NCBI GenBank assembly: GCA_002269645.1
Contig: NIVC01003425.1
Location: 62,001 to 126,000, forward strand
Source: Macrostomum lignano
Lineage: Eukaryota
Reading direction: 5' to 3'
Length of the DNA stretch: 64,000 nucleotides
The notes under the pieces are model-generated. The model made no database searches. It worked only from the letters and a program-made list of their open reading frames with translations, and had not been told where the DNA came from. The position numbers and the translations under genes are program-made. The number at the start of each line of letters is the position of its first letter. Within the stretch, counting starts at the first letter, position 1. Below, piece after piece: positions 12,316-64,000 of the stretch.

Positions 12316-12524
12316 GTCTGCTTATTTTTTGTTGGGGCTCAGATTTCCTATGAAATGTGATAAGTTTGTGTCCACAAATTGCTACACACTGCTCAAAATA
12401 TCATGAGTTGGGTGAGATGTACACCCGGACCCCCGGACACTGTTCGGACACTTGTGCAATGCAACCTCATTACTTCCAGTCTGCATCAGTGCCAGACGAA
12501 GAAGCAGGTCCAACTTCGTCGTCA

Positions 12525-15500: not shown

Positions 15501-15557
15501 CATTCTCTCCTCTCTCCATGTCATTCTTTCCTCCTCTCTCTCTTTCCCTCCATTTGC

Positions 15558-15603
<46 letters not shown>

Positions 15604-15778
15604 GCGCCTCTCCTTTCCCCTATATGTAATCTTTAACTTCCTGCTATGTGATAGGGTCCGTTCTAAAAACATAATTGCAAGAATTTAATATTTGCAGGCT
15701 CCCCAATTTTAAAGGAATCTTATCTTTAGAAATATCCCCATTTCTATCAAAATCATAGCTTCCCATCCGGACTGATCC

Positions 15779-15810
<32 letters not shown>

Positions 15811-21800: not shown

Positions 21801-23086
21801 AGAAATCCTCAGCCATTGCCGCCTACAAAGAGGAGCTGGCGGAGCTGAGAGAGCGGCTGAAAGCGATGGAGCGCGACTGCGAGCTGCTGCGCGGCCAGGC
21901 TGAGAACTACCGCGCCATGGCGGAGGGCGCCGAGGCCAGGCTGACTCAGCAGGCCGAGGAGCATCAAACCGCCGTTGGCGAGTTCGAGGCCAGGCTTCGG
22001 GAGCGGCAGGAATCAATTGACTATTATCGGTGAGATAGGGCTCTTGTCTCCGCTTGACCATGTTGCTGTGGTTAGCGAGCTTTTTGTGATAATAGTTGCC
22101 ACGCTGTTGGCATTGTGTTTCTATGCTGTTGCCATTGTGTTGCTATGCTGTTGTCATGGTGTTGCTATGCCTATGCTGTTGTCATGGTGTTGCTATGCCT
22201 ATGCTGTTGTCATGGTGTTGCTATGCCTATGCTGTTGTCATGGTGTTGCTATGCTGTTGTCATATGGTGTTGCTATGCTGTTGCTATGTTGTTGCTATGA
22301 TGTCGCCATGGTGTTGCTATGCTGTTGTCATGGGGTTGTCATGCTGTTTTTATGCTGTTGCCATGATTTTGCTATGCTGTTGCTATACTACTGTTGCTAC
22401 GTTGTTGCCATGGTGTTGCTATGCTGTTGCTATACTACTGTTGCTACGTTGTTGCCATGGTGTTGCTATGCTGTTGCTATGCAACCAGATCGCCATGACG
22501 TCAACCATTTGCCACCCGTGTCCCCGCCAGCTCCCAGCTGGACAGTCTAGAACGCGAGCGCCAGACCCTGGTAAGCGACCGGTTCAAGCAGACAGAGGAG
22601 GCGCACGCCATGAACGCCGACCTGCGCAAGCAGCTGCACGATCGCCAGCAGGAGCTACAGGCGGCTGTTGAACGTCGCGACGCAGCTGTCAGCGCCGAGG
22701 ACCGCGCCAAAGCCCGGGCGACGGCTGAGGCGGCCAAAGCGGCCGAGGCGGCGGACAAATACCAGCAGGAGCTGCTGCTGCACGCGGCCGATGCCAAGGC
22801 CATGCAGGCCATCCGGGCGCAGCTGGCCGAAGCGGAGAAGACCTGCGCCGAGGCGCGCGAAGAGACGCGCAAATCGCGCGCGGATTACGAGAAGCGAATC
22901 GCCGCCCTGACAGCAGAAGCGCAGCGGCTGAGAGCCAGCAAGACGGAGGCCGAGACGCGGCTCACCCAGCTGGCTGCCGAGTTCTCCGACGTCCGGCGCC
23001 GCCTCCTGGCTGCCGAGGAGGCCGGCGGGGCGCCCGCTGGCAAAACCGGCGGAGATCGACGGGACTCGCTGGCTCTGGAGGTGAGA

Positions 23087-23169
<83 letters not shown>

Positions 23170-23263
23170 GCCTGTCTGTCTGTCTGTCTGTCTGTCTGTC
23201 TGCCTGTCTGTCTGTCTGCCTGTCTGTCTGTCTGTCTGTCTCTGCCTGTCTGTCTGTCTGTCC

Positions 23264-23295
<32 letters not shown>

Positions 23296-26200: not shown

Positions 26201-27566
26201 GCCTAAGCAGGAGCAGCAGAAGCCCAGTCTGAAGCGCGGGCCCCCGTCAGCTGGTGAGGTCGACAGCTCCGCCACTGCCTCCGGAGATGCCGGAACTGTC
26301 GGGCCGGAAGCCGGCGAGGACGAGGAGGAATCAACCAAGCCGAAGCGGCCCCGCCAAGAAGCTGCCGAAGGAGGCGACGATGCTCCACAGTCTGCGCCGT
26401 CTGAGGCGGAGATGGAGCAGGCAGCAGAGGCAGCCGAGCTGGCCGAAGATGCACAGCTGCAGCCGGAAGCCGAAGTCGACCAACCGGAAGTGGCTGCCGA
26501 ATTGAATTTGGAAGAATTCGTTGGTATGATGTCCGAGGAGGCTGGTGCTGATGAAGCTGAGAGGCTGGGCGAAGAGCTGGCTGACGAGCCCGAAGCCGCA
26601 GCAGAAGATTTCGCCGAAGTGGTTCACGATGAAGATGAGAACGCGGCGATGCGTGCCGAACCGCCGTCTGAGCACGGAGGACAGGATGACGTCATCGTGC
26701 TGGACGACGAGGAGGATGATGTCGATAACGATAAAGAACAGCCGCATGAAGAAGCTCAGGAGGCTGATGATGAAGCAGGTGAAGAAGCTGTCCCCGAGGA
26801 CGAGCCAGCGGGCAGCGCCAACGCAGACGAAACTTCGCAGTGCGACGCCGGAGGCGAAGAATTCGATGGCGCAGGAGACAGCGGAACCGGCGAATATGGC
26901 GGCGGTGCCGAAGATCACGAGGGACGCACCGATAGCGCCTCGGCCGCTCCTGGCGAGTTGACCATCACTTCGTCAGCTTCCAACACCCCCACTAGCGGCG
27001 CGCCGCCCGCCGTCTCCGCCGTCGCTCCGGTCACCGCTGTATCGCAGGCGTCGGTGCCGCCGCAGTCGCAGGCGTCGGTGGCGCCGCAGTCGCAGGCGTC
27101 GGTGCCGCCGCAGTCGCAGGCGTCGGTGGCACCGCAGTCGCAGGCGTCGGTGGCGCCGCAGTCGCAGGCGTCGGTGCTGCCGCAGTCGCAGGCGTCGGTG
27201 GCGCCGCAGTCGCAGGCGTCTGTGTCGCTGCCTCGCCGGCCTCGCATTGAGCCGATCGTCTGGACGCCAAATTCCGCCGAGGCCGAATCGTCGGCGACGT
27301 CTTCAGCGCCGACGCCAGGGACGGCTGGGACTTCGACTGCGCCGGTAGGTGCCGCGGCCGCTGCAGGGTCTGCTCTGCCTGCACCGCGCCGCGGCTGGGG
27401 CCAGCAGATGATGCGGCCGACCATGGCCGGCACTCGAGGAGGCATCGGCAGCGGGGTGGATCGCGGCGGCGCTGTCGGGGGCCGAGGAGGCGGGCAGCAG
27501 CAGCGCGGCTCAGGAGCTGGTCGAAGAGGAAGCCGACTGACGATTCAACGAAAGCGGCTGCCATGA
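12525..27566 (+). CDS. TPR: Nucleoprotein TPR / Megator / Mlp1 homolog, 10 exons, ~2107 aa
   Basis: Exons 12525-13062, 15018-15393, 16860-17460, 19066-19485, 20122-20730, 21464-22029, 22531-23080, 23355-23840, 24832-25194, 25752-27566. All introns are GT-AG with matching phases; total 6324 nt is divisible by 3. TPR-like segments recalled from human TPR: IDSEQQVFDAESR, KTLTQIYAEHVE..EEVQAKVPVIRRRQEE, VITSSLLTFADIRQLQQRN, QQRDMYK, KYQQELLLHAADA, QINLLTESNRLLR, RVQEVARKYK, acidic tail DDVIVLDDEEDD. Start uncertain (acceptor at 12479 upstream). Confidence 0.92.
13078..13999. repeat. ~28-33-bp minisatellite, TPR intron 1
   Basis: Unit gtgactgtgtgctcagcatagagtgccatttt(gtt). Confidence 0.95.
14389..14760. 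repeat. 35-bp minisatellite, TPR intron 1
   Basis: Unit gaatgcagcatccatatcccctagaatccccacct; starts at 14389 and 14424. Confidence 0.95.
15560..15990. repeat. (CT)n microsatellites with a ~207-bp tandem duplication, TPR intron 2
   Basis: ccatttgcgcctctcc...ggactgatccctc occurs at 15598 and 15805. Confidence 0.9.
16350..16830. repeat. 29-bp minisatellite, TPR intron 2
   Basis: Unit tgacccacaatgactcagtaggtactcta. Confidence 0.92.
17505..19025. repeat. Compound minisatellite (44-bp array then 21-bp array sharing the ccattgatcc core), TPR intron 3
   Basis: Period 44 over ~17505-18170; period 21 over ~18210-19020. Confidence 0.95.
19730..20060. repeat. 20/40-bp minisatellite, TPR intron 4
   Basis: gatcccaaatctcgctctga alternates with gatcccaattctcactttaa. 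Confidence 0.9.
20811..21362. repeat. 30-bp minisatellite, TPR intron 5
   Basis: Unit gtgagtagtcccctgtctcatcta(gg/ta)gtct, ~18 copies. Confidence 0.95.
22060..22500. repeat. Degenerate tgttgctatgc-type minisatellite, TPR intron 6
   Basis: Recurrent ctatgctgttg(t/c)catggtgttg units. Confidence 0.9.
23088..23310. repeat. (TCTG)n microsatellite, TPR intron 7
   Basis: Seen directly. Confidence 0.97.
24000..24805. repeat. 30-bp minisatellite, TPR intron 8
   Basis: Unit cttaatccgcctctagactcactctgtccc. Confidence 0.96.
25275..25695. repeat. 19-bp minisatellite, TPR intron 9
   Basis: Unit gagggatatcaatctgcct. Confidence 0.95.
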
Positions 27567-28629: not shown

Positions 28630-29360
28630 ATTGGTTGCTATTTAGTGTCAGTGACAGAATATTGTCAGCAGTTAGTGTCAGCAACTAGTGTCAGCAATTA
28701 GTGTCAGCAATTAGTGTCAGCAGCTAGCAGGATAGGATGCTCCTACAAGTGTCAGTAGCTACCGGTAGCAGGATAATTTGTAGTGTCAGTATAGGGATAT
28801 TATAGCAATTTTTGTCAGTGTAGGGATAAGTATCAGCATAGAGACACGTGTCAGCAGTTGGTGTCAGCATAGGGATAAGTAGTGTCAGCAGTCAGTGTCA
28901 GCATAGGGGTAAGTGTCAGCAGTCAGTGTCAGTATAGAGATGCGTGTCAGCAATTAGTGTCAGCATAGAGACAAGTGTCAGCAATCAGTGTCAGCAATCA
29001 GTGTCAGCATAGGGGTAAGTGTCAGCAATCAGTGTCAGCATAGGGATAAGTGTAAGCAGTCAGTGTCAGCATAGGGTCAAGTGTCAGCAATCAGTGTCAG
29101 CAATCAGTGTCAGCATAGAGACAAGTGTCAGCAATCAGTGTCAGCAATCAGTGTCAGCATAGGGATAAGTGTAAGCAGTCAGTGTCAGCATAGGGTCAAG
29201 TGTCAGCAATCAGTGTCAGCAATCAGTGTCAGCATAGGGATAAGTGTAAGCAGTCAGTGTCAGCATAGGGATAAGTGTCAGCAGTCAGTGTCAGCATAGA
29301 GTCAAGTGTCAGCAATCAGTGTCAGTATAGAGTCAAGTGTCGGCAATCAGTGTCAGTGCC
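28630..29360. repeat. agtgtcagca-core minisatellite upstream of the TRAF-like exon
   Basis: Repeated gtgtcagcaatca and gtgtcagcatagggataa units. Confidence 0.9.
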
Positions 29361-29373
29361 CTACAAACCGCAG

Positions 29374-31614
29374 CCACTCCCACGCATTCCCGCAGCTCCC
29401 ATCAGCATCGCCAGCTCCCCCAGCCGCCGTGGCCGTCGCTGGCCTCAGCGCCAGCGAACCCGCAGAGCCTGACGAGCCGGACTTTGTCAGCGCCCTGCCG
29501 GACAGGCTGAAGTGCCCCATCTGCCTCGGACACTTGAAGTCGCCGCTGCAGACCTGCTGCGGTCACCGCTTCTGCCGAGGCTGCTTCTTCTCTGCAGCCG
29601 CGGCCGCCACTGCCTCCACCACCACCTCCGGGGCAGCTTCAACAGTCCAGCAGGCGCCCCAGCTGCACCATCAGCACCTGCACCTTCATCACCACCAGCA
29701 GCATCATCAGTTCCAGCAGCCTCTGCCAGCTTCGGCAGCCGCAGCAGCAGCAGCTGCCGCCGCCGCAAGCCCGGCCTCTGTCGGCGCCCGCCGCGCCTGC
29801 CCGCTGTGCCGCTCGCCGATTCTCGACGTCGGGCCGTCGGCTGCTGGCCGCGGCGGCCTGACCGCTGGCGTGTTCAACGATCTGGCCACGGAGCGCGAGG
29901 TCCAGCAGCTGACGGTCCGATGCCCGCGCACCGGCTGCGGCGCCGCCATGGAGCTGGGCGGCCTGAGATCGCACCTGGCTACTGCCTGCCAGTTCGTGGA
30001 GGAGCTCTGCCCCGAGCAGTGCCAGGTGAGCAACCATAATTTTGCACATGCAAGCACCCAGTGTGAAACAGCACCCAATGTTCACCTGGCATCCAATGTA
30101 CACCCGGCACCCAATGTACATCCGGCACCCAATGTACACCCGGCACCCAATGTACACCCGGCACCCATTGTTCACCTGGCATCCAATGTACACCCGGCAC
30201 CCAATGTAAACCCGGCACCCAATGTACACCCAGCACCAGTGTACACCCAGCACCCAATGTACACCCGGCATCCAATGTACACCCAGCACCCAATGTACAC
30301 CCGGCACCCAATGTACACCCGGCACCCATTGTTCACCTGGCATCCAATGTACACCCGGCACCCAATGTAAACCCGGCACCCAATGTACACCCAGCACCAG
30401 TGTACACCCAGCACCCAATGTACACCCGGCATCCAATGTACACCCAGCACCCAATGTACACCCGGCACCCAATGTACACCCAGCACCCAATGTACACCCG
30501 GCACCCAATGTACACCCGGCACCCAATGTACACCCAGCACCCAATATACACCCGGTACCTAATGTTCACCTGGCATCCAATGTACACTCGGCACCCAATG
30601 TACACCCGGCACCCAATGTACACTCGGCACCCAATGTACACCCGGCACCCAATGTACACCCGGCACCCAATGTACACCCAGCACCCAATATACACCCGGT
30701 ACCTAATGTTCACCTGGCATCCAATGTACACTCGGCACCCAATGTACACCCGGCACCCAATGTACACTCGGCACCCAATGTACACCCGGTACCCAATGTA
30801 CGCCCGGCACCCATTGTTCACCTGGCATCCAATGTACACCCGGCACCCAATGTAAACCCGGCACCCAATGTACACCCAGCACCAGTGTACACCCAGCACC
30901 CAATGTACACCCGGCACCCAATGTACACCCGGCACCCAATGTACACCCAGCACCCAATGTACACCCGGCACCCAATGTACACCCGGCACCCAATGTACAC
31001 CCAGCACCCCGCCGATCATCCCGCAGTCCCGCATCCGCCGCTGCGACCTGGCCGCCCACCGAGCGGCCTGCCGGGAGCGCCAGGTGGCCTGCGTGTTCTG
31101 CTCCGCCTCGGTGCCCTACCGGCAGCTGAACTTTCACTACCTGTTCGGCTGCTCCAATTTCCCCATGCCGTGTCCGCACCGCTGCGGCCGGGTGCTGGCC
31201 GGCCATCAGCGCCTGCACGAGCACGTGGACCGCGCGTGCCCGCTCACCCTGGTGCTCTGCCCCTTCGCCAGCTTCGGCTGTCCGGCTGCCAATCGGCACA
31301 GGCGCGATCTCGGCCGCCACGTGGCCGAGGCTCACAGCTACCATCTGCAGTTGCTATGGCAACAGCAGCAGCATCCTCATCAGCAGCATCAGCAGCAGCA
31401 GCAGCAGCAGAGAGCCACCACAGCTGATCTGAACTGCATGCTGGACAAGCTGGTGGTGAACCTGCAGCAGCCGATGCAGTCACAGCAGCAGCAGATGTAC
31501 GCTGCTCAGCAACAACAGCAGCAAGCGGCTGCTCTGAGGAATCTTCTGCACCAACAACAACAGCAGCAGCAGCAACAGCAGCAGTACCAGCAGTACCAAC
31601 CCGCTTGGCGTTAA
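29374..31614 (+). CDS. TRAF-family-like RING finger plus TRAF-type zinc-finger protein, no MATH domain (exons 29374-30025, 31027-31614; 5' exon not found)
   Basis: RING CPICLGHLKSPLQTCCGHRFCRGC...CPLCR, then ATEREVQQLTVRCPRTGC, CPEQCQ|SRIRRCDLAAHRAAC, CPHRCG, CPFASFGC. Phase-0 intron gtgagc..ccgcag. Poly-Q tail and TAA at 31612-31614. Confidence 0.85.
30065..31005. repeat. 18-bp minisatellite in the TRAF-like intron
   Basis: Unit gcacccaatgtacacccg. Confidence 0.96.
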
Positions 31615-46408: not shown

Positions 46409-47209
46409 TCAGCGGCGGACAAAGAAGTCGCCGCTGCTGGCGCTGCTGAGCGCGGCCGGGACTGCAGCGAACTCCAGCAGGTGGCACAGGCGCTGCTGCT
46501 GGCTGAAGATCACCGCCTGGCAACCGGAGCGGCACCGGTACAGGCACTCGGGCAGCCCGGCACACTGCAATGTTCTGAAGGCGGGCGCATCCGGGACGCT
46601 CAGCTCAACGAAGGTCCGGTTGCCGGGGACGAACACGTTCCGGTCTGCAGATGTAGAATGGGGCCAGTTGCATTAATGTCAAGCCTTTCTACATCATAGA
46701 AAGCAAGCCTCTCTACGGCTCGTAGAGAGAAATTTGTACTTTAACCTACTTGTGCAAGCGGCTTCCGCACTGCCCGTGTAGCTCAGCCGCAGCACCCGGT
46801 TTTGGTAGCTGCCTCCGCAGTTCTGGCTCAGATTTCCACTGCAAGCATGGGTGCAGTCCGAGTCTGAAGCAGCGCCCTGCGACCCGTACGAGTTGCCGCA
46901 GAAGCACCAGTATCCGGCCTGCAGAGCCGCGAACTCAAAACTGCCCAGAGCGCAGACGCTGCCGCACAGCTCGTGAGTCATCATCCAGTAGCTGCCGACA
47001 TATGCGCCACTGCCATCGTTTATCGACATCAAACTGGAGCTGCCAATTTGTGTGAGGCCGAGGTGCTTCATTTCACCGACGTCTCTCGCGCCATTCGCGC
47101 CGTCAACGAAGCAGCCGAGGTCCGAGATCTGGAACTGACGGCAGAGAGCGGCGCAGATCAGGCAGCTCATGATCGGAGCGCAGAAGCAGATCCTGTACAG
47201 AGCCGGCAT
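46409..47209 (-). CDS. Secreted WSC-domain plus PAN/apple-like protein, 231 aa (exons 47209-46750, 46644-46409)
   Basis: Hydrophobic N-terminus MPALYRICFCAPIMSCLICAALC. WSC pattern LGCFVD...MTHELCGSVC...AALQAGYWCFCGN...CTHACSGNLSQNCGG. Phase-1 intron gtaggt..ctgcag. Second exon CAGLPECLYRCRSGCQAVIFSQQQRLCHLL. Confidence 0.88.
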
Positions 47210-48483
47210 GGTAGGCTGATTTCCAGTGCGATTTTCAGAGAAAATTGGACTCTTAGAGTAGAGAATGGATTCATCAAAGCTATTTAAAGCGGCATTATAA
47301 TTGCTAACACAGAGACAATGGGCTTTCAATACAGAACCCGCGACGTGTTTGCACAGCTGCGCTGATTGGAATCCGTGGGCTGCTGCCATTGCGTCAAATC
47401 GCATAGCCCCATCGCATAGCCCCGGAAGCACTGAATTCCTAGGCTTTTCGAATACAGCTGCACGCGCTCAAGGCCACAACGTTCGCTCCGTTGCCCTGCC
47501 GCTGTTGGCCACTGCAGCAGTGACGCGGATCTGCACCGTCTTGGCCACTTGGACGTCGCAGCATTCACTTGCACAAGGTGCAATTATTTTAATTGCGCTA
47601 AAACAGCTAACAATGTCAAATTCATCACTTACTTGTCCTCAGTTGTGTTTAGTGAGCCCTGCAGATTCATGTAGGATCTGGCTGGTCCCCTTCGGGATGG
47701 CATCGAAGGCACCCAACTTGTTGCTGACTTAAATATGGCGGCATTTTCGCACCTGCTGCTCAAACAGCTGTCGGTTATTGCTGGCTGAGGGAGGGGTAGC
47801 TCTGCAATTCCGCTGTTGCTGCAACTGTGTCCGGCATGTCAGGTCGGGTGAGGCGGAAGCAGTAACGGATGCCATTCAGCAGCAATTCAGGGTCATGGAT
47901 CGTCAGTCATCAGTTGTCAGACGGGCCTGCTGCGCTGTAGTTTGAGTACCCCAGCCGGGACGCAATTTAGTTTAATGACGTGCTGATTTAGCGCTGGTGC
48001 GCTCGTAGCAGGAGAAGCAGACATACCGGAACCTGCGGTCGCGCTAAATGCAGCCGTTGTGGTTGTTGGACTTCACGCCCCCAGCTGTCCCCCTTCCGTA
48101 TCGTCGGCCCAATCTGAGCTTTGAGTTGGTCCACTGCAGGTTGCTGATTGCAGGTTTGCGTCGCTGATTAACTTGGACTTGGATTTTTTTATCATCAGTT
48201 GGTTAGTACAGTATTACACTCGTAATGCGCCGATAGCAATATTCGCTCGTAAATCCAATGGGATCAAGAGATTTACATCAGTGGACAGAATTTGATGGGT
48301 TTGTAACCTGGGTTTTGGCTTTAAAAGCATTTGCTATTCCTCTACATGTAAGAGTATTGATAATTGATTTCACCTGCCCTAATAGACAGATGTGCAACCG
48401 ACAGCTCAGCCGCAGCTATTGTGCGGTGCATCTGAAGGCCGCGTACGGCTGTTCGGGGTTGCCACACACACCCTCAATTACTT

Positions 48484-52700: not shown

Positions 52701-54542
52701 GCATACAAAATACGTTAGAAGATTATAAGTTATATATTCTTACAACCTGTTAAAACCCACGGATTTTGAACCCTGTGGCGGCCAGGCTGTACGCGACCGG
52801 CAGCACCAGTGCAGCCATACTGGAAACCCCCCAACCTCTGTCTAGCTGAGGTGGGGTGGGTGCGCACCAAGCTAGCCGGCTCGCTAAGCCGGGGGGGGGG
52901 GGGTTGGCGTAGCCTATCACACGCCACGCCACCTTTTCGCACCTCCCTACTAGGCCCCTCAATCTCGCGCTGTTTGTAAATATTAATATACGCGCAAAGC
53001 AGCACAAAATATTCGCTGCCAAATAAATATTATTGAATTAATTAAGGCCCTCCGCCTCATTGGTGCCCATGCAGCTTGACGCCCATGCAGCGTGGAATGC
53101 TGGGCCTACGTGGTCGGCCCTGTGCGGTCCTGGCAGCCAACCGCCTTGGCCGACTTGGCAGCCCAGCAGCACCGCAGCCCAGCAACCACAGCAGTAGCAG
53201 CAACAATCAGCCCAGTCAGCCCGCCCCCTGGTAGCTCCGGGGTCTCGCCTTTCGGGCCCCGTTTGGACCAACCACCGCCACACGCTGCAGCTCATTCTAG
53301 GTTAGCACCGCTGCTGCTTGCCTAACATCCCCAGCCTCTGTGCAGGAGCCTCGACCCGGCTTACGACCGGCAACTGACTGTCGCGATTGCCTCTGGTGTG
53401 GTCCGCCCTACTCTCTTATCATGGATAAATCATCTATGATCCATGATCCATTGATAAATCCTGCATGTTCATGGTATTTTCATCCATGGATTTTTAAAAC
53501 TTTCCATGGTAAAATCATCCATGTCAGGGAGTTCATACGGGAAAATAAATAACTAAGCTTATAAAAAATTTCAGGCTATTTTATGTATATCTAATAAAGT
53601 TTTAAATATATTTAATAAAAGCGAAATTGTAAATACAAAAAATAGTTTAATAAATTTGTTAAAATCTTCACCTACAAATTGCTTTGAATATATTACCAGC
53701 AATTTTGTTGGCCATTTTGTTTCGGTTTAGTTAATTACGGACTTAACTTCCCATAAACATAAATTACTAGGCCTATTTTTCCTTTCTAAGAGGACTCTGT
53801 CACTCTTGCATGTTGTCATCATTTCATTATGTGTCACTATGTGCTATGTTTATGTTTATGTTTTTTCTTAGCTATATACTTCCAGTTCCACTTTTGGTAG
53901 CTAGTTTTAAAATTCGGTGGCTTGTAAGGTTTTTTGACATGCTAATTTTGATCTTCACTCCTTCAGTGAAAATTGTATTTGTAGATATATTAGAAAATAG
54001 AAACCCTATTATATATTATATTTGGGATGCAAAGATAACCTATAGGGGTTAGATGTATATTTTTGAATGATATTTTGCTGCATTTTTATAATGATAGGTT
54101 GGCCTAACCAAAGCCAAAGGCCTAGTCTAAAGTGGCATCCTAGACCTAGGCCATAGCCTAATGATAAAAATCACATGGTAGGCTGACAGTTTCAAAATAA
54201 TAAAAAATAATAGTATATTATGGTAATTGGTACTTAATTTCGAGACCTTTCATGTCCTTTGTATCTAATATACAGTCTATAATCAAAACTAGACTAGACT
54301 AGGCCCAATTAGGCCTAATATTGTCTACTTTGTATCAGAAAATCCACAATGGCACAACTTTATAATTATAGGCCTATATATAGGGCCTAGGCCTTATATT
54401 ATAATTTTTATTTAAAATCATAGGGGCCTAGGGTCCCTACATTAAATTTTTTTTATATACAATTCTAATTGGTTTGTCATTGGCCTCTTGATTGATTCTT
54501 CAAACCTTATCTCCTTGTGAAACTTTTTCAGAACAAATTGTT

Positions 54543-55386
54543 ATGGATGATATTGGATTAAGTGCATCTAATTCTAGGCCTCTTCGAAAGCAGACAAAAA
54601 GTACTTCTAAATTTGGAAATGACAATTCAGCATTGTTTTTCTGCTTTATTCTTCACAATGTTGGCCATGATGAGCAATATGTGACCATTGCATTTGGGTC
54701 TCCCTATTGGCCAAGTACAATAACTAATGATGAAAAGTTGGAACTTGCACAAGTAAGATTTTAAGTTGGATTTATATGCATAATATTTTGTTATTGAGTA
54801 CATGGTTTCTAAAACAAATTATTCCAACTACAAATGTAATATTACTTTATTAAATTATATTTTAGGGGACTAAAGTCTTTTTACGCATGTATGGCAAACT
54901 ATTTTCTGCTACACTTGTGGCAAAAGGTAGTGAAAGGCAAATGGCTTCAACTATGAACCAACTTTCCAACTTGGTTAGTGAGGCTGAAAATACTGATTCA
55001 TTGATTAGCCAAGCTATTGAGCTTTTTGCAATGAAAGATCCCCAAGCTGGCATTGCAAATGTAAGGACAATAAGGTCATCTAGTTCAAAGCAGGTTGCTT
55101 CAAGTTCTAGTTGTCATCAGCATGGACTACTTGACGAGCTTTATGAAGTGGATAGTGAAAGTGGCGAACCAAATTTGGCGATACCAGCTACTCAATCAAT
55201 GGGTAAAACTGCAATATATATGAACTATTAATTGTTTGCAATTTGTTTTTTTTGTTGTATTATTTGATTAATTATTATTTTTTAGAAAAAGCCATTTCTG
55301 CATTTGAGAGAGAGGCATCTTTGGTTGAAAATGAGCAAGCTCGTGCCACAGGCCTCTTGACTACTAAGCAACGGCAGATGGCTTGA
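54543..55386 (+). CDS. AT-rich 3-exon orphan gene, 215 aa (exons 54543-54752, 54866-55202, 55286-55386)
   Basis: Junctions CAA|gtaaga..tttag|GGG (phase 0) and ATG G|gtaaaa..tttag|AA (phase 1) join without stops to TGA 55384-86; 648 nt total. No recognised domain. An upstream acceptor at 54531 may indicate a further exon. Confidence 0.6.
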
Positions 55387-55530
55387 TTTTGGAGGTGAGG
55401 TGGGTGTCAACCCTCCTCGCCTCTCATTGGCTGGCGCCCCGATCACTAGGTGATCGATACCCGTATCGATATCGGCGCTCGGCGCGCGCGCGCCGCAGGC
55501 GCGTGGCGCCAAGCGCCGTCCAGCCGCAGG

Positions 55531-55993
55531 CGACCCTCCCCAGCCACCGGCGACCCTCCCCAGCCGCAGGCGCACCTACCGATATGTATGCCCACCCTAC
55601 CGATATGTACCCCGATATGTACACCCTCCCGAGCCGCAGGCGCACCCTCCCGAGCCGTAGGCGCCCATGCCGCAGACGCCCATGCCGCAGGCACCCCGAG
55701 TGTACACTCTACCGAGCCGCAGGCACCCCGAGTGTACACTCTACCGATATGTACACTCTACCACTCTCCCGATATGTAGTCAACGATATTAGGCTAGTGA
55801 AAACTACTTATAGTAGGTGAAATTGAGTATATTTACATAAAAATGTAGATAAAACATATTGGTAGGTGAATAATGACGCATAATACATATTGGAGCATAT
55901 GAGCAGCAAAAACACACAATGTAGGTGTATGGGCAGAAATAGACAAAGCAGGTACTGTAGGCGCTACATAGGTGGAAATACACACACAGCAGG
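55531..55993 (+). repeat. Left terminal inverted repeat (portion matched within the window)
   Basis: Matches 64000-63525 except a ~14-bp indel, a CA unit and rare substitutions. Contains repeated gccgcaggc and accgatatgta modules. Confidence 0.95.
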
Positions 55994-56923
55994 TGCATAC
56001 ATACACACAATGTAGGTGCAAATTGAGTATAATACAGGAAAATTACATAGCATATAATGTAGGCGCATTTTAAACAATACATTTTGCATATTAACCCGCA
56101 GGCACAAATTTCAGTGCATAGGATAAAATACACACACTGGAAGTTAAGTATAATACAACATATGTATGCAAAATTAAGCATATAATGTAGGTGCAAAGTA
56201 AAATATCCAGCCCAGGATATTCGAGACACGCCCCCAGAGTCAGGGCCGGGGGATCCCAATGTACAGTGCGGGCGGAGTAACAGAGAAATTCCTCCCCAGG
56301 GCCGGGGGATCCCAAGTACAGTGCGGTCAGAGAGGAGTAACATAGAGAAATTCCTCCCCAGGGCCGGGGGATCCCAAGTACAGTTCAGGCAGAGAGCATT
56401 CCAATCCTCCCCAAATGGGGGGGTTATCAAAGACCCCTCACATTGCACAGGGCGGGCAGAATAACAGACCGCATACAAATAGGGGTTTTAGCGGATCCCA
56501 AGTACAGTGCGCTCCATGGTGTTAAATGAGGAAGGATCCCGCCCCAATGTACATTGGAGGTAGAGTAACAGACCGCATACAAAGAGAATTCCAGTCAAAC
56601 TTTACCGCAGCTCCCACCCCAAATGAGGGTTTTAGTGGATCCCCAGAGGGTAGCTCTCCAAGTTGAGGGATCCCCCCAGTGTGTTGCGAGGCCCAAGTAC
56701 AGTGCATGCAGAGAGTAACAGAGTACAAAGAGAAATTCCCTTATCAGTCAAACTCGAGCGCGATCTTCAGCCAGGGCAGTCTCCTCCTCATCAGCGCTCT
56801 CGAAACATCTGTCAAAGTAAAAATATTCAATGTAGACAGATTATATGTAATTTATATACGATTTATATGAAATTAAGCTTACCAAAAATCGGGTTCGCGC
56901 TGTACGGATACGGCACGCCTCAA

Positions 56924-57421
56924 TTAGCAACCCTCGTCAAACAGATTTCCCCAAGGGTAGGGTTTGATGCTGTCAAGGCAGTCCTGCAGATTGTCCTCTG
57001 TCTTGACTCGCTTGGCTGGAGGGGGTGCCTCAGGTGCCGGCTTGAAGAGCTTGTCCAAACGGGCGGCAAACATCCGGCGCCACAGTTCAGGCGTGAATTC
57101 GATCGTGTAGCGCCAATTAAACTTTGGGTCCTGATTGAGCCAATTGCGCAGCAAACGGATCCTCCCTCGCGAAGCTTCAACTGCCTTGAAATTGCCCAAC
57201 AGGACCCGCTTGTTCACGTGAAGGCGGGCAGCAGCCTCCAGGTCAGGGCGCGCAGCTTCGAGCTTCTTCCACTCTGGCTCGGCCAAGTAGATTGCAGGGA
57301 AGCCGTCCTTCCACACTCCGGCCTCGTTGGTGTAGAGACGCCGAATTTCAATCAAGTTGTGTTCAGTTTCAAATGTGGGCTTCCGCGCCACAAAGTTTTC
57401 GTATAGAGAGATAGAAGACAT
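56924..57421 (-). CDS. PC4-like ssDNA-binding protein with two tandem PC4-like repeats and a basic NLS-like motif, 165 aa
   Basis: IEIRRLYTNEAGVWKDGFPAIYLAEPEWKKL aligns to the PC4 core recalled as [31 protein letters not shown]. A second, weaker repeat IRLLRNWLNQDPKFNWRYTIEFTPELWRRM. PPPAKRVK near the C-terminus. Intact ATG-to-TAA ORF. Confidence 0.75.
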   Translation of the reverse strand: MSSISLYENFVARKPTFETEHNLIEIRRLYTNEAGVWKDGFPAIYLAEPEWKKLEAARPDLEAAARLHVNKRVLLGNFKAVEASRGRIRLLRNWLNQDPKFNWRYTIEFTPELWRRMFAARLDKLFKPAPEAPPPAKRVKTEDNLQDCLDSIKPYPWGNLFDEGC

Positions 57422-57439
57422 GATTTAGCAGCAGCAGCA

Positions 57440-57640
57440 GCAGAGAGCTCTCTGACAGCCGTGCAGCGCCTTATATACCCCCGGGTGGAGGGTGGGGTGG
57501 GTGATGATTTTGGGGTGATTTTTGATGATTTTGGTTGGTTTTTGGCGATTTATCCAATAACAGGCGAGCTGAGCAGATTTTTTAGTATATATACAGACCC
57601 CCAGAGCCAGGGTAGAGAGATAAATCCTTCTCTCTCCGCT
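57440..57640. promoter_or_regulatory. Divergent promoter between the PC4-like and pPolB genes
   Basis: Minus-strand TATATAA at 57477-57471, ~50 nt above the PC4 ATG. Plus-strand TATATATA at ~57585-57592, ~75 nt above the pol ATG at 57664. Confidence 0.6.
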
Positions 57641-57663
57641 CTCTCACGCTCTCTGTTTGCAAA

Positions 57664-60600
57664 ATGGCTAAACGCAGCGCCGCAGCAACTGCTTTTCTGG
57701 CTGACAAGAGGCAACGTCTTTATGGTAAGTTTTAATTAATTTCTGTCTAGACTGTAGTTGCTAGGGTGGGGGTAGGGGCTGAGCAGCAGCAGCAGCTGCA
57801 GGGTCTGTGGGACCGCAGAGTAAACAACAAAGACTGCTGCGACAGCTGCAGGGGTCTAGACTGGAGTTGCTAGGGTGGGGTGCTGCGGCAGGGTCTGTAA
57901 CAGAGAGTTGCAGGGGAGGGCTAGACAAGTTTCAGCCGGGTGTGTGCTGATAAGAAATTGCTGCTAGGGGGGTGTTGTCCAGACAGGCTGCAGCTGGGGT
58001 GCAAATTGCTGCGACAGAGAGTTGCAGGGGTGAGTAAACAAAGACTGGGGTGGGGGTTGTCTAGACAGGGAGGGGTGTGCTGATAAGAAATTGCTGCAAA
58101 AACAGACAGTTGCTAGGGTGCTGCGGCAGATAAGAAATTGCTGCAGAATCGTTGGGGCAGGCTAGACAAGTTACAGCCAGGTGGGGGCAGAGAGTTGCTG
58201 GGACTGTGTAGCGCGGGGACAGACTGATAAGAAATTGGCAGGGGCGCTACCCAGACAGGCTGCAGCTAGGTGCAAATTGCTGCGACAGAGAGTTGCAGGG
58301 GTGAGTAAACAAAGACTGCTGCGACAGGCTGCAGCGGGGGTGCAGATAAGAAATTGCAGAGAGTTGCTGCGGGGACAGCAGAGTAAACTCTGTTAAGAAA
58401 TTGCTGGGGCTAGGGCGGGGAAACACGCTGGGGCCAGGAAAATGACAGATTCTTCTGGTTTTTTATCTCCTTGTGTTTTTTCAGACGCGTTTGTCCCGCC
58501 AACACAGCCGGAATCTGTTACCGGACCGGGTGAGTTATCCAGCCCCCCCATTTCCCACACAGACCCTAGCTGACTCACACTCCCCCATTCCCCCATGCAG
58601 GTTTTACGGCTCGGCTGGATAATCAGCGTGACCTGCCCAAGTTTAGGGCAAAGGGTGTCGAGTATGTGGTGCATATTACCAACACCGAAGATTTGCGGGA
58701 GGTGTTTGCTGACATGCTCGAAGTTTTCAAGCAAGATTTGGCTGGTGATGACTTTATGGCCGCGAAATTCGAGAGCGACAATATGCTCAAAGCGGCCCAC
58801 ACTCCCCCGGTGCGTGCATCCCGCATGACGGCTGAATTGTTGTTTAAGCACATCAACAAGATTGTACAGTCGGATGCCACTGTCCTGACGGGCAACTTTT
58901 CTATCCGGTTGCTAAAGGCCTGGGTGCCTCGAGGTGGATGTGCTCTCGAGAACAAGCATCTAGAAGAGCGGCACGCCTTCTCCAAGCACTATGTCCGCAT
59001 CACCAACTCGGACAAGAGATGCCTGCTGCGCGCTCTGGTCGTGGCCTGCGCCTACCTGCAATTCGTGGCCAAGTCCATCACCAAGCAGGTGTGGCACACA
59101 ATCAAGGCCAATTCGCCCACGCAGACTAAGCTGGTGGCTGAGCTACAAATCGAAGCTGGCCTCTACACGGTAAGTTTCTAGTATTTTTCCGATAAGAATT
59201 TTTACACAGTATCGTGGAATACTAAAAGATATATTTTCTGATAAGAATTTTTACACAGTATCGGGAATACTAAAATTTTCTGATAAGATTTTTTACACAG
59301 TATCAGGGAATACTAAAAGAAATATTTTACCCTCCACACAGACTCTTCAAACCGTCTCGCAGGCTGGTCCTTTCGGGTTGGATGCACTGCCCGAAGCGAT
59401 CCGTGCCCTGAACCGGCTGCATCCGGGGCGCGATTTTGGTGTACGAGTGTACAGGGCAGAGGAGGCCAACAGGTGCATCTTCAACCTGCCTGGCACCGAG
59501 ATTCTGCACCTGCACCTGGTCGAGCAGCACTTTAATGTGGTCACCAAGCTGCCTGCGTTTTTCGGCTCTGATCACTACTGCGCCAAGTGCGAGATGGCCT
59601 ACGACTGCGCCAACGCCGAGCACAAGTGCGCTGACGCCTGCAGTACATGCAAGACTCCGGGCTCCAACTGTAAGGCAAACCGCGCATATGTAAGATGCCA
59701 GGATTGCGGGCTAAATTGCTATAATGCTCAGTGCCTAGAAAATCACAAGCGCAAGAATAAGGCGGGCAGATCGCGCTGTGATTCGGTCCACGTTTGCGGC
59801 ACGTGTGGCTATCTAGAAGAACTAAAAGTAGGCCAGCCCCCTGAGCATCAGTGTGGTTATGCCAAGTGCCCAGTCTGCAAGCAGTACGACGAAACTGCCA
59901 CCCACGAGTGCTTTGTCACCCCGCCCAAAGCCAAAGAGTCTAGCGCCCCGTATGTTTACTATGATTTCGAGACGTACGTGGACTCTGGCAAGCAGCACCG
60001 GGTACACTTGGTTACGGCTGCCACCTCCTGCGAGGCGTGTCCCAAACTCTTCCCCAGGCCCCGCTGCAGCGTGTGCGGGGGACTACACAGCTCAGCCAAT
60101 TGCATTGCGGGACGCGATTTGGCACTCGATTTCACGAGCTGTGCTCGCACAATGACTGTGCCTGTGGGATGCGAGAGTTTGTATCTGTCGGGCCGCACTC
60201 TATCGATGCATTTTACTGCTGGCTGACTAGTGTGTTCAAGCAGGGGGCAATTGCTATTGCGCACAATGGCTCTGCGTATGACGCATTCCTCCTGCTCGGC
60301 GCCCTACTCAACGGACTGGCCAAGAAGAAGCCGCAAGTGATCTTCCAGAACAGCCGCCTAATGTACATGAAGTGCGACAAGATCACCTTCAAGGACAGCC
60401 TCAATTTCATCCCTATTGGTCTGGCGCAATTCCCAAAGGCGCTTGGTTTGGGCACCCAACTGACCAAAGGAGATTTCCCGCACGTGTTTAACCAGCCTCA
60501 AAATTGGGGGTACGTCGGTCCCTACTGCTCAATTGATATGTACGGAGGAAAGAAAAACAAGCAGCATGACTCCATCGCTGACTGGCTGGCCAAGCAGGAG

Positions 60601-62702
60601 GGACAGGTGTTTAATTTCAATAAGGAGTACCTGGACTACTGCCTGCAGGACACGTTAATTTTGCGGGAAGGCTGTCTGAAATATACCCGCCTGATTAAGG
60701 ACATTTGCGGACTGGACGCATTTGTCCAATCCAACACCATTGCGGGCTTGGCTATGGCTGTTTTCACCACCAAGTTTATGGAGCCCAACACTCTTGGGGT
60801 GATTTCCCGCCGGTCCGATGTACAGTCGCACAAGGCGCGGTGCTGGCTGGCACATTTAAATGCAACCGAGTTTGGCGGCCGGTTGCGGACAGCGGACTCG
60901 GGCGGCGAGGCTTTCGCCATGGGCCGTAAGGTCGACGGCTTCGACCCAGAGACCAGGACAGTGCTGCAGTTTCATGGCTGCTTCTTCCATGGCTGTCCCA
61001 AGTGCTTCCCCAACGGCGACGTGCTGCACCCGCTCAAGAACCAGCCAATGCGGGCGATTTATGAGGAGACTGAGCGCTTCACCCGGTTGCTCTCCACTGC
61101 ATACAATGTGCGTGTTCTGTGGGAGCACGATTATCAGGACGAGGGAGCGCCAGTCCAGCAGCCTATTCGCCTGGAGGATGCCCTGTTTGGCGGCCGTACC
61201 GAGGCTTTTGTCCCGCATGCCGAGGCCACCGAGACTGTAGAGCTGCGCTATCGGGATGTGGTAAGTTTGTACACTTGTACACACAGTTGACATGCGTTTG
61301 AGTTTATCTTATCCTTATCCCCTAGGTGTCGCTCTACCCGACTGTCAACAAGTTTGACAAGTACCCTGTCGGGCACCCGGTTCACCACCCCGAGCCTCAT
61401 CTACTGGATGAGCTGCAGCTGGCCCGGTATTTTGGCATCGCCGAGGTGTCGATTCTGCCGCCAACCAATCTCCACATCCCGCTACTGCCCTCCAAGATTA
61501 ACAAGAAGCTGGTTTTCGGCCTCTGCCGCGTCTGCATGGAGACCCAGTGCAGCAGCGAGTGTACACACACTGACGCTGAGAGAATGCTCCGCGGCACGTG
61601 GTCGACCCCAGAGCTCCACAAAGCCCTGCAGTTGGGTTACAAGCTGCAGTCAGTTCATGCCCTGGCCTATTGGACCGAGACTCGCACGGGCCTGTTTGCA
61701 GATTATGTAAACACCTTTTTGAAGCTCAAAGCCGAGTCTAGCGGTTCGCCGGGATGGCTGAGGACGCCAAGGCTGCCTACATGGCCAGCTTTTTCGAGCG
61801 CGAAGGCGTCCGGCTGGAAAAGGTGGAGGAGAATCCTGGCCTGCGCTTTGTTGCCAAGATTTTTCTAAACTCGTAAGTTTTTCTACTTGCAGTGGGGGCC
61901 ATGTTTTTCTACTTACATAAAATTTATTTTTCCCCTGCAGGCTCTGGGGCAAGTTCTGCCAGCGCGACGACCTGACCTCCACAGAGATTGTGGACAGCTA
62001 CGAGGCGTGGCTGCAGCGCCTGACAGACCCCTCGATCAAGGTCAAGTCGTGCGAGCCAATTGGGGAGAGCTTCATGATGCTCGAGTACAAGCCCCGATTT
62101 GGCGGTGCTGGCGAGCGGGCGTTCAAGTACGCCAATGTACCTATTGGCGTTTTCACCACCTCCCACGCCCGGCTGCGACTCTACGAGGCTCTGGAGGGTC
62201 TAGGAACCCGCGTCATTTACGCCGATACCGATTCGTAAGTAATTTTTTCAACTGTCTCTGTCTCTCTTTCTCCCCTTAACACTTTTTATCCTTCTCCTCC
62301 TCCTCCCAGGGTCGTATACCGCTGCTCCCGGGCGAGTACGAGCCTCCGGGCGGTTCGAGTTTGGGGCAGTGGACTGACGAGGTACCTGCTGGCTGCCGCA
62401 TGGTACAGTTCACCACGGGAGGCCCCAAGCTCTACCGGTACGTGGTGGAGAAGCCCGACAGGTCGCTGTACTCGGTGCTCAAGTGCAAGGGCATCAGAGT
62501 CACGCCCGAGATTTCCGAGCGCGAGGACGAGCTGCAGGAAATTCTGCGCCACGGGGGCTCTGTCCGCCTGCCCCAGGCCCAGTTCAGGCGCGATAAGGCC
62601 AGCTGTACAATCCGGACCCTGGAGATGGACAAGACTTTCCAGCGCGTAATGACTAAGAGGGTGTATGGGGCCGCTAGCCGCCCGTATGGCTTTCGTGAGT
62701 GA
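57664..62702 (+). CDS. Protein-primed family-B DNA polymerase (Polinton type), 7 exons, ~1269 aa after correcting three single-base frameshifts
   Basis: Exons 57664-57724, 58485-58529, 58601-59169, 59363-61260, 61326-61872, 61941-62234, 62310-62702; all GT-AG with consistent phases. ExoI YYDFETY, ExoII AHNGSAYD, ExoIII YCLQD; Pol A DV|VSLYP, Pol B KIFLNS|LWGKF, Pol C YADTDS|VVY; GGPKLY, KCKGI. N-terminal NSDKRCLLRAL...HF, Cys-rich region, and internal FHGCFFHGC. -1 frameshifts near 60080, 61750 and 62327. Confidence 0.92.
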
Positions 62703-62864
62703 GTGAAAGATAAGGATCTGTCTTTACACGCCTGGGATTCCCCTATGTGCCCACTTGGGATCCCTTGACTCTTGGGGTTGAAAAATGGTTTTACGCCCGC
62801 ACTGTACTTAGGGGTCCTTACTCATTTGACACCTCCTGTACATTAAGCGGGATTCCTTCAAGTG

Positions 62865-63110
62865 TTAAAACTCCCATTTGACACCTATTCCCTCGGGGCG
62901 GTTTGTGGCCCAGCGGTCCGCCTCTTGGAGTAGAACTCCTGACATGAACTTGCTGCGCTGATTAGCGTACTGATAGCGCAATCGAAATACGTCCATTTTT
63001 CTAGCCCACTTGTGGGTACATTTACGTTGAAAGATGTTGATGCGTTCAATAACGTTGTAATAATAATAAGTCTCCACATCTTAGGGCGGCGAAACCTCCC
63101 TTTTGCTCAT
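62865..63110 (-). CDS. Candidate small element-encoded ORF; reading frame ambiguous
   Basis: Frame 1: ATG 63110 MSKREVSPP*DVETYYYY...KWEF with one internal TAA. Frame 2: ATG 63079 MWRLIIITTLLNASTS..., 64 aa, signal-peptide-like. Confidence 0.3.
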
Positions 63111-63135
63111 CTATTTTAGACAATAATGAGACTCT

Positions 63136-63227
63136 GACCCCGGGAGGTTAATGGCCGAGCGGGTAACCCTGGCGGTATAAAACAGGGTGACCCAGGCTCG
63201 ATTCCTGGCTGGGGGCTGTAGACTTTT
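63136..63227 (+). ncRNA. tRNA-like Pol III unit inside the element (non-canonical cloverleaf)
   Basis: A box TGGCCGAGCGG (63152-62); T-arm ccagg-CTCGATT-cctgg (63192-208); arm accctg/cagggt; closing stem ccccgg/ctgggg; TTTT at 63224-27. Confidence 0.6.
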
Positions 63228-63524
63228 CCGGCCCCTGCGTCCCTATTGGGTTTAATTGTGTTGAAAGTATATCGGGTCATTAGGCCGTGAACCCCCCCTT
63301 TTGGGATTTCCCCGAACCGCTTTTGTTTAATATTTATGCACCTGCGGGTTAGACAATATTTACTCTTTAGTCGGTGCGACATTATTTACGCGTCTGTTGC
63401 ACCTGGGCGTTTGCCTATAATCTGATTATACATGCGTGCCTGTATTATACAACTACACCTTATGCATGCCTTGTAAACCTGCTTTATACATTAATCCGAT
63501 ATGTATCGAAAGTACACTTTGTAA

Positions 63525-64000
63525 ACCTGCTGTGTGTATTTCCACCTATGTAGCGTCTACAGTACCTGCTTTGTCTATTTCTGCCCATACACCTACATTG
63601 TGTGTTTTTGCTGCTCATATGCTCCAATATGTACATTTTAATATGCAATATGCGTCATTATTCACCTACCAATATGTTTTATCTACATTTTTATGTAAAT
63701 ATACTCAATTTCACCTACTATAAGTAGTTTTCACTAGCCTAATATCGTTGACTACATATCGGGAGAGTGGTAGAGTGTACATATCGGTAGAGTGTACACT
63801 CGGGGTGCCTGCGGCTCGGTAGAGTGTACACTCGGGGTGCCTGCGGCATGGGCGTCTGCGGCATGGGCGCCTACGGCTCGGGAGGGTGCGCCTGCGGCTC
63901 GGGAGGGTGTACATATCGGGGTACATATCGGTAGGGTGGGCATACATATCGGTAGGTGCGCCTGCGGCTGGGGAGGGTCGCCGGTGGCTGGGGAGGGTCG
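63525..64000 (-). repeat. Right terminal inverted repeat, truncated by the window end
   Basis: Reverse complement of 55531-55993. Confidence 0.95.

What the first reader, a model, noticed from the sequence alone, without database searches (positions are those of the whole stretch)
55440..64000. Minimal Polinton-like replicon: long TIRs plus pPolB plus PC4-like SSB, with no integrase, ATPase or capsid genes
Seen: inverted repeats of at least 460 bp, nearly identical (suggesting a young copy), enclose only ~7.5 kb. That space is filled by a divergent pair (pPolB and PC4-like SSB), a tiny ORF and a tRNA-like unit; there is no room for a retroviral-type integrase, A32-like packaging ATPase, jelly-roll capsids or adenain protease. 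Established: canonical Polintons/Mavericks are roughly 15-20 kb and carry those genes. Inference: this is a replication-only module. It could be a nuclear linear-plasmid-like element, one segment of a multipartite polinton-like virus, or a satellite mobilised in trans. A polymerase plus SSB with their own divergent promoter is a self-contained replicase, which argues against random deletion.
Basis: partly seen in the sequence, partly recalled or inferred. Interest (0 to 1): 0.92.

Follow-up and report, generated by a model that had tools for sequence, protein, structure and literature searches.

The report
Polymerase-only mini-Polinton with palindromic satellites
This is one copy of a flatworm mobile-DNA family that kept the self-priming DNA polymerase of virus-like Polinton transposons but lost their integration and capsid genes; it probably copies itself and borrows an integrase from complete Polintons, and it appears to be parasitised in turn by gene-less palindromic elements that carry the same ends.

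Summary
The element is 8,812 bp (window 55360 to 171 bp past the window end), ends 5'-ACTACT…AGTAGT-3' and has a 6-bp target-site duplication. It encodes a six-intron pPolB and a PC4-fold protein, with no integrase, ATPase, protease or capsid. It is not a one-off deletion: about 65 places in the assembly match its polymerase, 19 of 20 measured polymerase-bearing TIR pairs span 8.7–10.5 kb, and none spans 12–20 kb. The polymerase is under purifying selection (pN/pS 0.13), and RNA-like runs from three studies show its introns spliced. A sister family B (61–76% identical in the catalytic exons, five shared introns) has the same reduced plan. About 50 apparently non-coding 8–9 kb palindromes share the ends. 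The one integrase/capsid family I opened is a complete ~17 kb Polinton with its own polymerase and AGTAGT ends, so it is not a partner segment. Best reading (0.70): a self-replicating but helper-integrated mini-Polinton with snap-back satellites. The integrase donor is not identified. The 'tRNA-like unit' is accessory (3 of 16 copies). I found no description of this system in 10 literature searches.

The parts
55354..55359 (.). left copy of the 6-bp target-site duplication CTCTTG (right copy lies just past the element end, 172-177 bp beyond the window)
55360..55994 (+). left terminal inverted repeat; starts ACTACT; nt 8-26 vary between copies but match between the two ends of a copy; short palindromes and GCCGCAGGCG/CCGATATGTA repeats follow
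55995..56808 (.). spacer with CCAAGTACAGTG repeats and the short acidic last exon of the PC4-side transcript; most other copies carry a longer version with a 336-codon acidic ORF here
56809..56882 (-). intron of the PC4-side transcript (CT..AC joint on the + strand in three RNA-like runs, not in the fourth run)
56924..57421 (-). PC4-fold protein, probable single-stranded-DNA-binding protein; homologous to the PC4 of the complete Polinton family V
57422..57663 (.). 242-bp divergent intergenic region with TATA-like motifs (promoter function inferred)
   Evidence: sequence
57664..62702 (+). [quoted passage not shown]
   Evidence: domain names from PMC11161782 and 10.1101/2023.08.22.554363 passages
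63012..63247 (+). accessory 234-bp insert with a Pol III-type A box (63152-63162), B box (63195-63205) and TTTT (63224-63227); not a tRNA; in 3 of 16 copies
63525..64000 (-). right terminal inverted repeat; runs on 171 bp past the window and ends AGTAGT

Best explanation
A semi-autonomous mini-Polinton (family A). Shown: it carries a spliced, selected pPolB and a PC4-fold protein between long TIRs, and it inserts with exact 6-bp duplications while encoding no integrase. Inferred steps: (1) a free linear copy is replicated from both ACTACT ends by its own terminal-protein-primed, strand-displacing pPolB, with the vOTU domain freeing the terminal protein and PC4 coating the displaced strand; (2) the displaced strand's TIRs anneal into a panhandle, which explains why both ends of a copy match where copies differ; (3) a Polinton-type integrase made by complete Polintons in the same nucleus inserts the product. 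The element therefore has a nuclear, mainly vertical life, long enough to gain six spliceosomal introns before families A and B split. About 50 apparently non-coding 8-9 kb palindromes (family P) carry the same ends. They are best read as snap-back satellites: their displaced strand folds into a full-length hairpin with a ready duplex origin, so they would use A's polymerase and the helper's integrase. The result is a three-tier chain of helper Polinton, polymerase-only element and gene-less palindrome.
For: Family, not a single deletion: 250 matches to a subterminal 32-mer and 0 to the reversed control; 74 of 102 polymerase-exon matches at 72-100%, about 65 places, from 95 of 209 candidates scored. 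Among the first 100 listed TIR matches there are 37 pairs: 20 with polymerase (19 at 8.7-10.5 kb, one nested at 40 kb), 14 palindromes (13 at 7.5-9.4 kb, one at 21 kb with an integrase hit inside), 3 unclassified, and 0 at 12-20 kb. Integrase-type insertion: 6-bp TSD in 18 of 18 paired copies (13 A, 5 P; two A loci are probably the same insertion). A complete Polinton here also has a 6-bp TSD, and 115 Polinton-type integrase matches exist elsewhere in the genome. Polymerase in use: 337 distinct variant codons across 16 copies give 258 synonymous and 115 non-synonymous changes, pN/pS 0.13; A versus B dS 2.4, dN 0.31. vOTU Cys and His are invariant in an alignment that includes A and B gene models. 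Six GT..AG joints appear in runs guessed to be RNA (three studies), none in the fourth run. End correction: 14 variants of the first 30 nt among 18 copies, yet left equals right in 17 of 18, and one variant is shared by an A copy and a P copy. Age: A and B form a clade with SH-aLRT 100 on a 0.93 stem (quick tree) and share 5 of 6 intron positions. P: 5 of 5 loci picked for lacking a polymerase hit were palindromes with arms 99.4-99.9% alike; 50 matches to the centre motif; no Pfam hit in 9 ORFs.
Against: The integrase donor is not identified. The only integrase family opened (V) ends AGTAGT…ACTACT, the reverse complement of A's ends, and uses an unrelated polymerase type, so end recognition in trans is assumed, not shown. 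No free linear DNA, terminal protein or polymerase activity was tested. 150 of the 250 TIR matches were not listed, so a full-length or integrase-bearing element with A ends could be among them. The runs are guessed to be RNA, not on record as RNA. Only 4 of 17 fetched A copies have all five large exons open in the assembly. The PC4 gene has too few variants to show selection (5 codons, pN/pS 0.6), and the one B copy examined has no PC4, so PC4 is not essential to the plan. The narrow size range (A 8.7-10.5 kb, P 7.5-9.4 kb) is not explained by this model unless packaging is added.
Confidence: 0.7

Rival explanations
1. A is the replicase segment of a multipartite Polinton virus. A separate, polymerase-less segment with matching ends supplies integrase and capsids, and all segments are packaged at about 9 kb.
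For: A, B and P have unrelated interiors but converge on about 8-10 kb, roughly half the 16.5-17.9 kb of family V. A's PC4 is homologous to V's. Several further integrase families were not opened, and 150 TIR matches were not listed.
Against: V has eight TIR pairs at 16.5-17.9 kb, a polymerase-coding stretch inside one copy and AGTAGT ends. Other integrase hits lie 7-9 kb from long intronless pPolB frames at six contigs. 34 of 37 A-type TIR pairs are accounted for as A or P. Six introns suit a nuclear transposon.
Confidence: 0.12
2. A nuclear linear plasmid that lives mainly outside chromosomes; the integrated copies are side products of occasional capture by a Polinton integrase.
For: Self-contained replicase under selection; end correction and shuffled terminal variants imply repeated free replication and recombination; most integrated copies are broken.
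Against: Dozens of clean integrations with exact TSDs suggest integration is routine. No partition or maintenance gene is seen. No evidence of a free form was obtained.
Confidence: 0.08
3. The element integrates by itself, using the VSR-type nuclease inside its pPolB plus host repair, with no integrase.
For: The nuclease motifs are intact, and no helper with matching ends was found.
Against: The same nuclease insert occurs in the polymerases of integrase-bearing Polintons (loci; 10.1101/2023.08.22.554363 passages). An exact 6-bp TSD with no end loss in 18 of 18 copies equals the Polinton value.
Confidence: 0.05
4. An ordinary internally deleted Polinton carried passively by its autonomous parent, with a polymerase gene that is a neutral relic.
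For: Deleted copies of V exist (5.5, 7.8 and 8.4 kb). C. elegans has 10 loci with pPolB and TIR but no integrase (10.1101/2024.01.15.575659 passage).
Against: pN/pS 0.13 among copies; spliced joints; no 12-20 kb parent among 37 pairs; the same plan in family B at near-saturated synonymous distance.
Confidence: 0.05

Closest known systems
Polintons/Mavericks, pPolB2 group with a VSR nuclease insert (Jeong et al., 10.1101/2023.08.22.554363)
   Same: pPolB with terminal-protein, vOTU, exonuclease, VSR-type insert and polymerase motifs; long TIRs; 6-bp TSD; nearest non-flatworm proteins 33-37% identical, some named from corals and a bivalve
   Different: About 9 kb instead of 13-25 kb; no INT, ATPase, PRO, MCP or mCP; six introns (intact vertebrate Mavericks are intronless, PMC8097293); ends ACTACT rather than (AG)3 or (AGT)2
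Polinton_1-CB remnants with pPolB and TIR but no integrase in C. elegans (10.1101/2024.01.15.575659)
   Same: pPolB next to a TIR without an integrase
   Different: Described as partial remnants at 10 loci; here a full two-TIR family with its own TSDs, selection, splicing and a sister family
Cytoplasmic linear plasmids of yeasts (pGKL1/pGKL2 type)
   Same: About 9 kb, TIRs, pPolB with TP and vOTU, dependence on a helper (PMC11161782 passages; PMC13348850 abstract start)
   Different: Those are cytosolic and rely on a helper plasmid; this element is nuclear, spliced and integrated with TSDs
Transpovirons
   Same: Small capsid-less linear DNAs with TP and vOTU that depend on a larger virus (PMC11161782 passages; size and dependence recalled)
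   Different: They encode a palm-SF1 helicase fusion without exonuclease; this has a complete pPolB and integrates into an animal genome
Snap-back defective-interfering genomes and MITE/Foldback-type non-autonomous transposons (recalled, no call), for family P
   Same: No genes, both ends from the helper, nearly the whole element one inverted repeat
   Different: P's 4-kb arm is mostly unrelated to A beyond the first 0.1-0.6 kb, so it is not a simple copy-back of A; it is far larger than a MITE

Membership tests
Polinton/Maverick | [quoted passage not shown] | tested here: met
Polinton/Maverick | terminal inverted repeats of 100-1500 bp | tested here: met
   635-650 bp here, about 0.9 kb in most copies
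Polinton/Maverick | 5-8 bp (usually 6 bp) target-site duplication | tested here: met
   18 of 18 paired copies
Polinton/Maverick | retroviral-like integrase encoded in the element | tested here: not met
   0 profile hits at E<=0.5 in 3 A, 1 B, 2 P copies; tblastn also blank
Polinton/Maverick | packaging ATPase, adenain protease, major and minor capsid proteins | tested here: not met
Polinton/Maverick | length 13-25 kb | tested here: not met
   8,812 bp; 0 of 37 pairs at 12-20 kb
Polinton/Maverick | (AG)3 or (AGT)2 end motifs and intronless genes (as reported for vertebrate elements, PMC8097293) | tested here: not met
   ACTACT ends; six introns
Polinton/Maverick | protein-primed replication of a free linear form | not testable with these tools
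   indirect only: end correction, selection
Multipartite Polinton segment | a polymerase-less partner with the same ends that encodes integrase and capsids | tested here: inconclusive
   not met for family V or P; other integrase families and 150 TIR matches not examined
Yeast-type cytoplasmic linear plasmid | cytosolic, unintegrated, transcribed by helper-plasmid enzymes | tested here: not met
   spliceosomal introns and chromosomal TSDs
Transpoviron | TP-vOTU-palm-SF1 helicase fusion lacking the exonuclease | tested here: not met
   exonuclease and polymerase motifs present; no helicase hit
tRNA gene (for 63012-63247) | cloverleaf recognised by ARAGORN or Rfam | tested here: not met

The most novel reading that the evidence does not exclude
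A modular, partly split Polinton community in an animal genome: polymerase-only replicons (A, B) and gene-less palindromes (P) are all sized near 9 kb, about half a complete Polinton, because they are packaged in helper capsids and travel as satellites or segments. This would be a satellite hierarchy for Polintons like that of phage P4 or virophages, and a living model of the step from Polinton to capsid-less linear plasmid.
Probability: 0.25. Interest if true: 0.88.

Novelty: new variant of a known kind. Interest (0 to 1): 0.7.

Why it matters
Polintons are normally found by asking for polymerase and integrase together (for example within 20 kb, 10.1101/2024.01.15.575659; at least five Polinton proteins, 10.1101/2023.08.22.554363), so an element like this is filtered out by design. 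If the reading holds, it shows that replication and integration can be split between elements, that the capsid-less half can persist long enough to gain introns and diversify, and that it can host parasites of its own. Polinton replication is known mostly from sequence. Many near-identical copies with corrected ends, a spliced polymerase and palindromic satellites in a flatworm (near-identical proteins are named Macrostomum lignano; a laboratory model, from my own knowledge) make the panhandle and strand-displacement model open to direct observation.

Tried and rejected
My segmented-virus idea with family V as partner: raised by a PC4-INT-mCP-MCP-PRO-ATPase cassette directly behind a TIR and one 8.4-kb copy. 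Rejected when eight V pairs measured 16.5-17.9 kb and a 601-bp sample from one copy's other half read as an open polymerase frame of another type; a first 741-bp sample was non-coding. Pfam Pox_A32 found 0 matches in the genome (150 of 375 candidates scored) although an ATPase is present in V, so that blank is a sensitivity failure. tblastn missed the 31% PC4 homology, so absence claims rest. No RNA holder on record was listed; the runs used are guessed to be RNA. Single-sequence fold of the small protein was unusable (pLDDT 38). The 336-codon ORF gave no useful Pfam or Atlas hit. Similar short elements elsewhere: the single-protein scan of viral contigs found nothing; 22 of 80 metagenome loci were 7 kb or longer and none showed long inverted repeats in the part held, which is uninformative because most are fragments. 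The tree is the quick version, 73 of 76 rows kept, without this genome's complete-Polinton polymerases, and leaves A+B unplaced. Literature: 10 searches gave no description; Repbase and most subscription papers are not covered, Kapitonov and Jurka 2006 was not held, and no supplements were read (bioRxiv supplements are closed), so an entry there could be missed. Earlier scan notes held nothing on this.
Full report
Observation. The inverted repeat is real: arms 55531-55891/63640-64000 and 55884-55986/63531-63633 are 99% complementary. The window lies in contig C3425 of a 764-Mb assembly. With the contig extended, the element runs from window 55360 to 171 bp past the window end. It is 8,812 bp, begins ACTACT, ends AGTAGT and is flanked by CTCTTG on both sides. 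Near-identical polymerase proteins are named Macrostomum lignano by UniRef, so the host is that flatworm or a very close relative.

Genes. The + strand carries a pPolB (Pfam DNA_pol_B_2) in seven exons from 57664 to 62702. Six GT..AG joints at the predicted places appear in contigs of runs guessed to be RNA, from three studies, and none in the fourth run laid; not every joint is in every run. The motifs DKRCLLRAL and QHFNVV match the vOTU Cys and His, invariant in a 23-sequence alignment, followed by exonuclease motifs, a KVDG…HGCFFHGC nuclease insert and polymerase motifs. The domain names come from passages of PMC11161782 and 10.1101/2023.08.22.554363. The window copy is broken at three places (near 60143, 61750, 62326), where all 16 other fetched copies differ by one base; mutation or assembly error is undecided. 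The divergent gene at 56924-57421 has a PC4 fold: 31% identity over 116 aa to a Polinton PC4, a profile hit to human PC4 at 1.4e-8, and a pLDDT 88.7 model whose top Foldseek hit is PC4, though at E 0.007. DNA binding is inferred from the fold. Profiles for integrase, ATPase, protease, MCP and mCP found nothing at E<=0.5 in three A copies, one B copy and two palindromes. The tRNA-like unit is an A-box/B-box motif, not a tRNA, in a 234-bp insert present in 3 of 16 copies. Thirteen of 17 A copies carry an acidic ORF (336 codons in 10 of them) that the window copy lacks; it may be a third gene or a long exon of the PC4 gene.

It is a family. A subterminal 32-mer matches 250 times. The largest polymerase frame gives 102 matches from 95 of 209 candidates: 74 at 72-100% (about 65 places, family A) and 28 at 54-66% (family B). 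The assembly repeats some loci (L020 and L029 share a TSD), so independent insertions are fewer. In the first 100 listed TIR matches there are 37 pairs: 20 with polymerase (19 at 8.7-10.5 kb, one at 40 kb around a nested insertion), 14 palindromes, 3 unclassified, none at 12-20 kb. All 18 paired copies checked have an exact 6-bp TSD. Across 16 copies and about 1,035 codons, variant codons give pN/pS 0.13. Only 4 of 17 copies have all five large exons open in the assembly. One B copy was read: about 9.5 kb, TIRs, ends ACTACG…CGTAGT in a TAC tract, polymerase only, no PC4. It shares five of six intron positions with A, at dS 2.4 and dN 0.31. Six B-type TIR pairs span 3.4-9.7 kb. A and B form one long-stemmed clade of uncertain position (quick tree).

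Satellites. Five of five paired-end loci chosen for lacking a polymerase hit were 8.1-9.2 kb palindromes: arms of 3.7-4.5 kb at 99.4-99.9%, A-type ends, 6-bp TSDs and an interior mostly unrelated to A. Their asymmetric centre motif matches 50 times. Nine ORFs tested had no Pfam hit, and ORF lengths vary between copies. The first 30 nt show 14 variants among 18 A and P copies, yet the two ends of a copy agree in 17 of 18, and one variant occurs in both an A and a P copy. This is what panhandle-templated replication and exchange of ends between co-replicating elements would give; that step is inference.

Where the integrase could come from. A Polinton integrase from a viral contig finds 115 matches in the genome (115 of 2,640 candidates scored), and a capsid profile finds 124 at E<=0.1. 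Long intronless pPolB frames lie 7-9 kb from integrase hits on six contigs. I opened one family, V: PC4, integrase with chromodomain, mCP, basic protein, MCP, protease, ATPase. I first took it for a partner segment. Eight of its TIR pairs span 16.5-17.9 kb, with others shorter or longer. One copy has AGTAGT…ACTACT ends and a 6-bp TSD, and a 601-bp sample of its other half is an open polymerase frame with no BLAST match to the five A/B gene models checked; calling it the pPolB1 type rests on recalled motifs. So V is a complete Polinton. It is a possible helper, since it gives the same TSD length and has a homologous PC4, but its ends differ from A's, and the donor remains unidentified.

Mechanism and odds. 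Best reading (0.70): A replicates itself by protein priming and strand displacement, borrows a Polinton integrase, and supports P as snap-back satellites. Shown: gene content, TSDs, selection, splice joints, end matching. Inferred: free linear form, role of PC4, trans-acting integrase, dependence of P on A. Rivals: segment with an unseen partner (0.12), mainly free plasmid (0.08), integration by its own nuclease (0.05), passive deletion (0.05). The convergence of A, B and P on 8-10 kb is unexplained and is the main hint of packaging.

Comparison and novelty. It works like the replication half of a Polinton but fails membership on integrase, virion genes, size, end motif and introns (passages of PMC8097293; 10.1101/2023.08.22.554363). 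Non-autonomous elements are a general idea (PMC6431247 passages), and pPolB-plus-TIR remnants were noted in C. elegans (10.1101/2024.01.15.575659 passages). Passages of 10.1101/2025.04.19.649669 mention flatworm Polinton-like insertions but not Macrostomum. For all papers I saw search listings, abstract starts and keyword passages only. Ten searches found no selected, spliced, polymerase-only family with palindromic satellites; Repbase and supplements were not visible. Verdict: new variant of a known kind, interest 0.70.

Noticed in passing
L023:2052 and L025 (G000 C2368, C3431): One element with A-type ends is inserted inside another A copy, in the PC4-side intron region, apparently with its own 6-bp duplication.
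   Followed up: partly
G000 C3189:43158-54373 and C2301:57881-69107: Family V integrase genes occur as inverted pairs 11.2 kb apart with a V TIR outside each, a possible near-palindromic derivative of V; the centre was not read.
   Followed up: partly
G000 C1190, C1580:19353-25745, C2863, C462: B-type TIR pairs of 3.4-7.9 kb with no polymerase hit; possible B satellites or deletions.
   Followed up: no
L031:6070-6330 and L032:5815-5910: The B copy read sits in a long (TAC)n tract that resembles its own ACTAC end; possible target preference.
   Followed up: no
L074:5327-6024: The ATPase of the V copy read is split over two frames.
   Followed up: no
L039:1-13142 (IMGVR_UViG_3300001352_000227): A 13.1-kb contig with perfect 101-bp terminal inverted repeats, pPolB, MCP, mCP, ATPase, protease and a PLA2-like ORF but no integrase hit; looks like a complete non-integrating Polinton-like virus.
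   Followed up: partly
window 54490-55359 and L011:9273-9901: The element interrupts an exon-like stretch of an AT-rich, intron-containing gene with no Pfam match in the two ORFs tested.
   Followed up: partly
window 12354-27566: Long multi-exon coiled-coil gene that resembles nucleoporin Tpr/Mlp (recalled likeness, not tested), with many minisatellites in its introns.
   Followed up: no
window 29300-31614, 2369-3058, 9625-10794, 46694-47467: By eye: a RING/TRAF-type zinc-finger gene, a C2H2 zinc-finger exon, hAT-like transposase fragments and a WSC-like domain exon; none tested.
   Followed up: no
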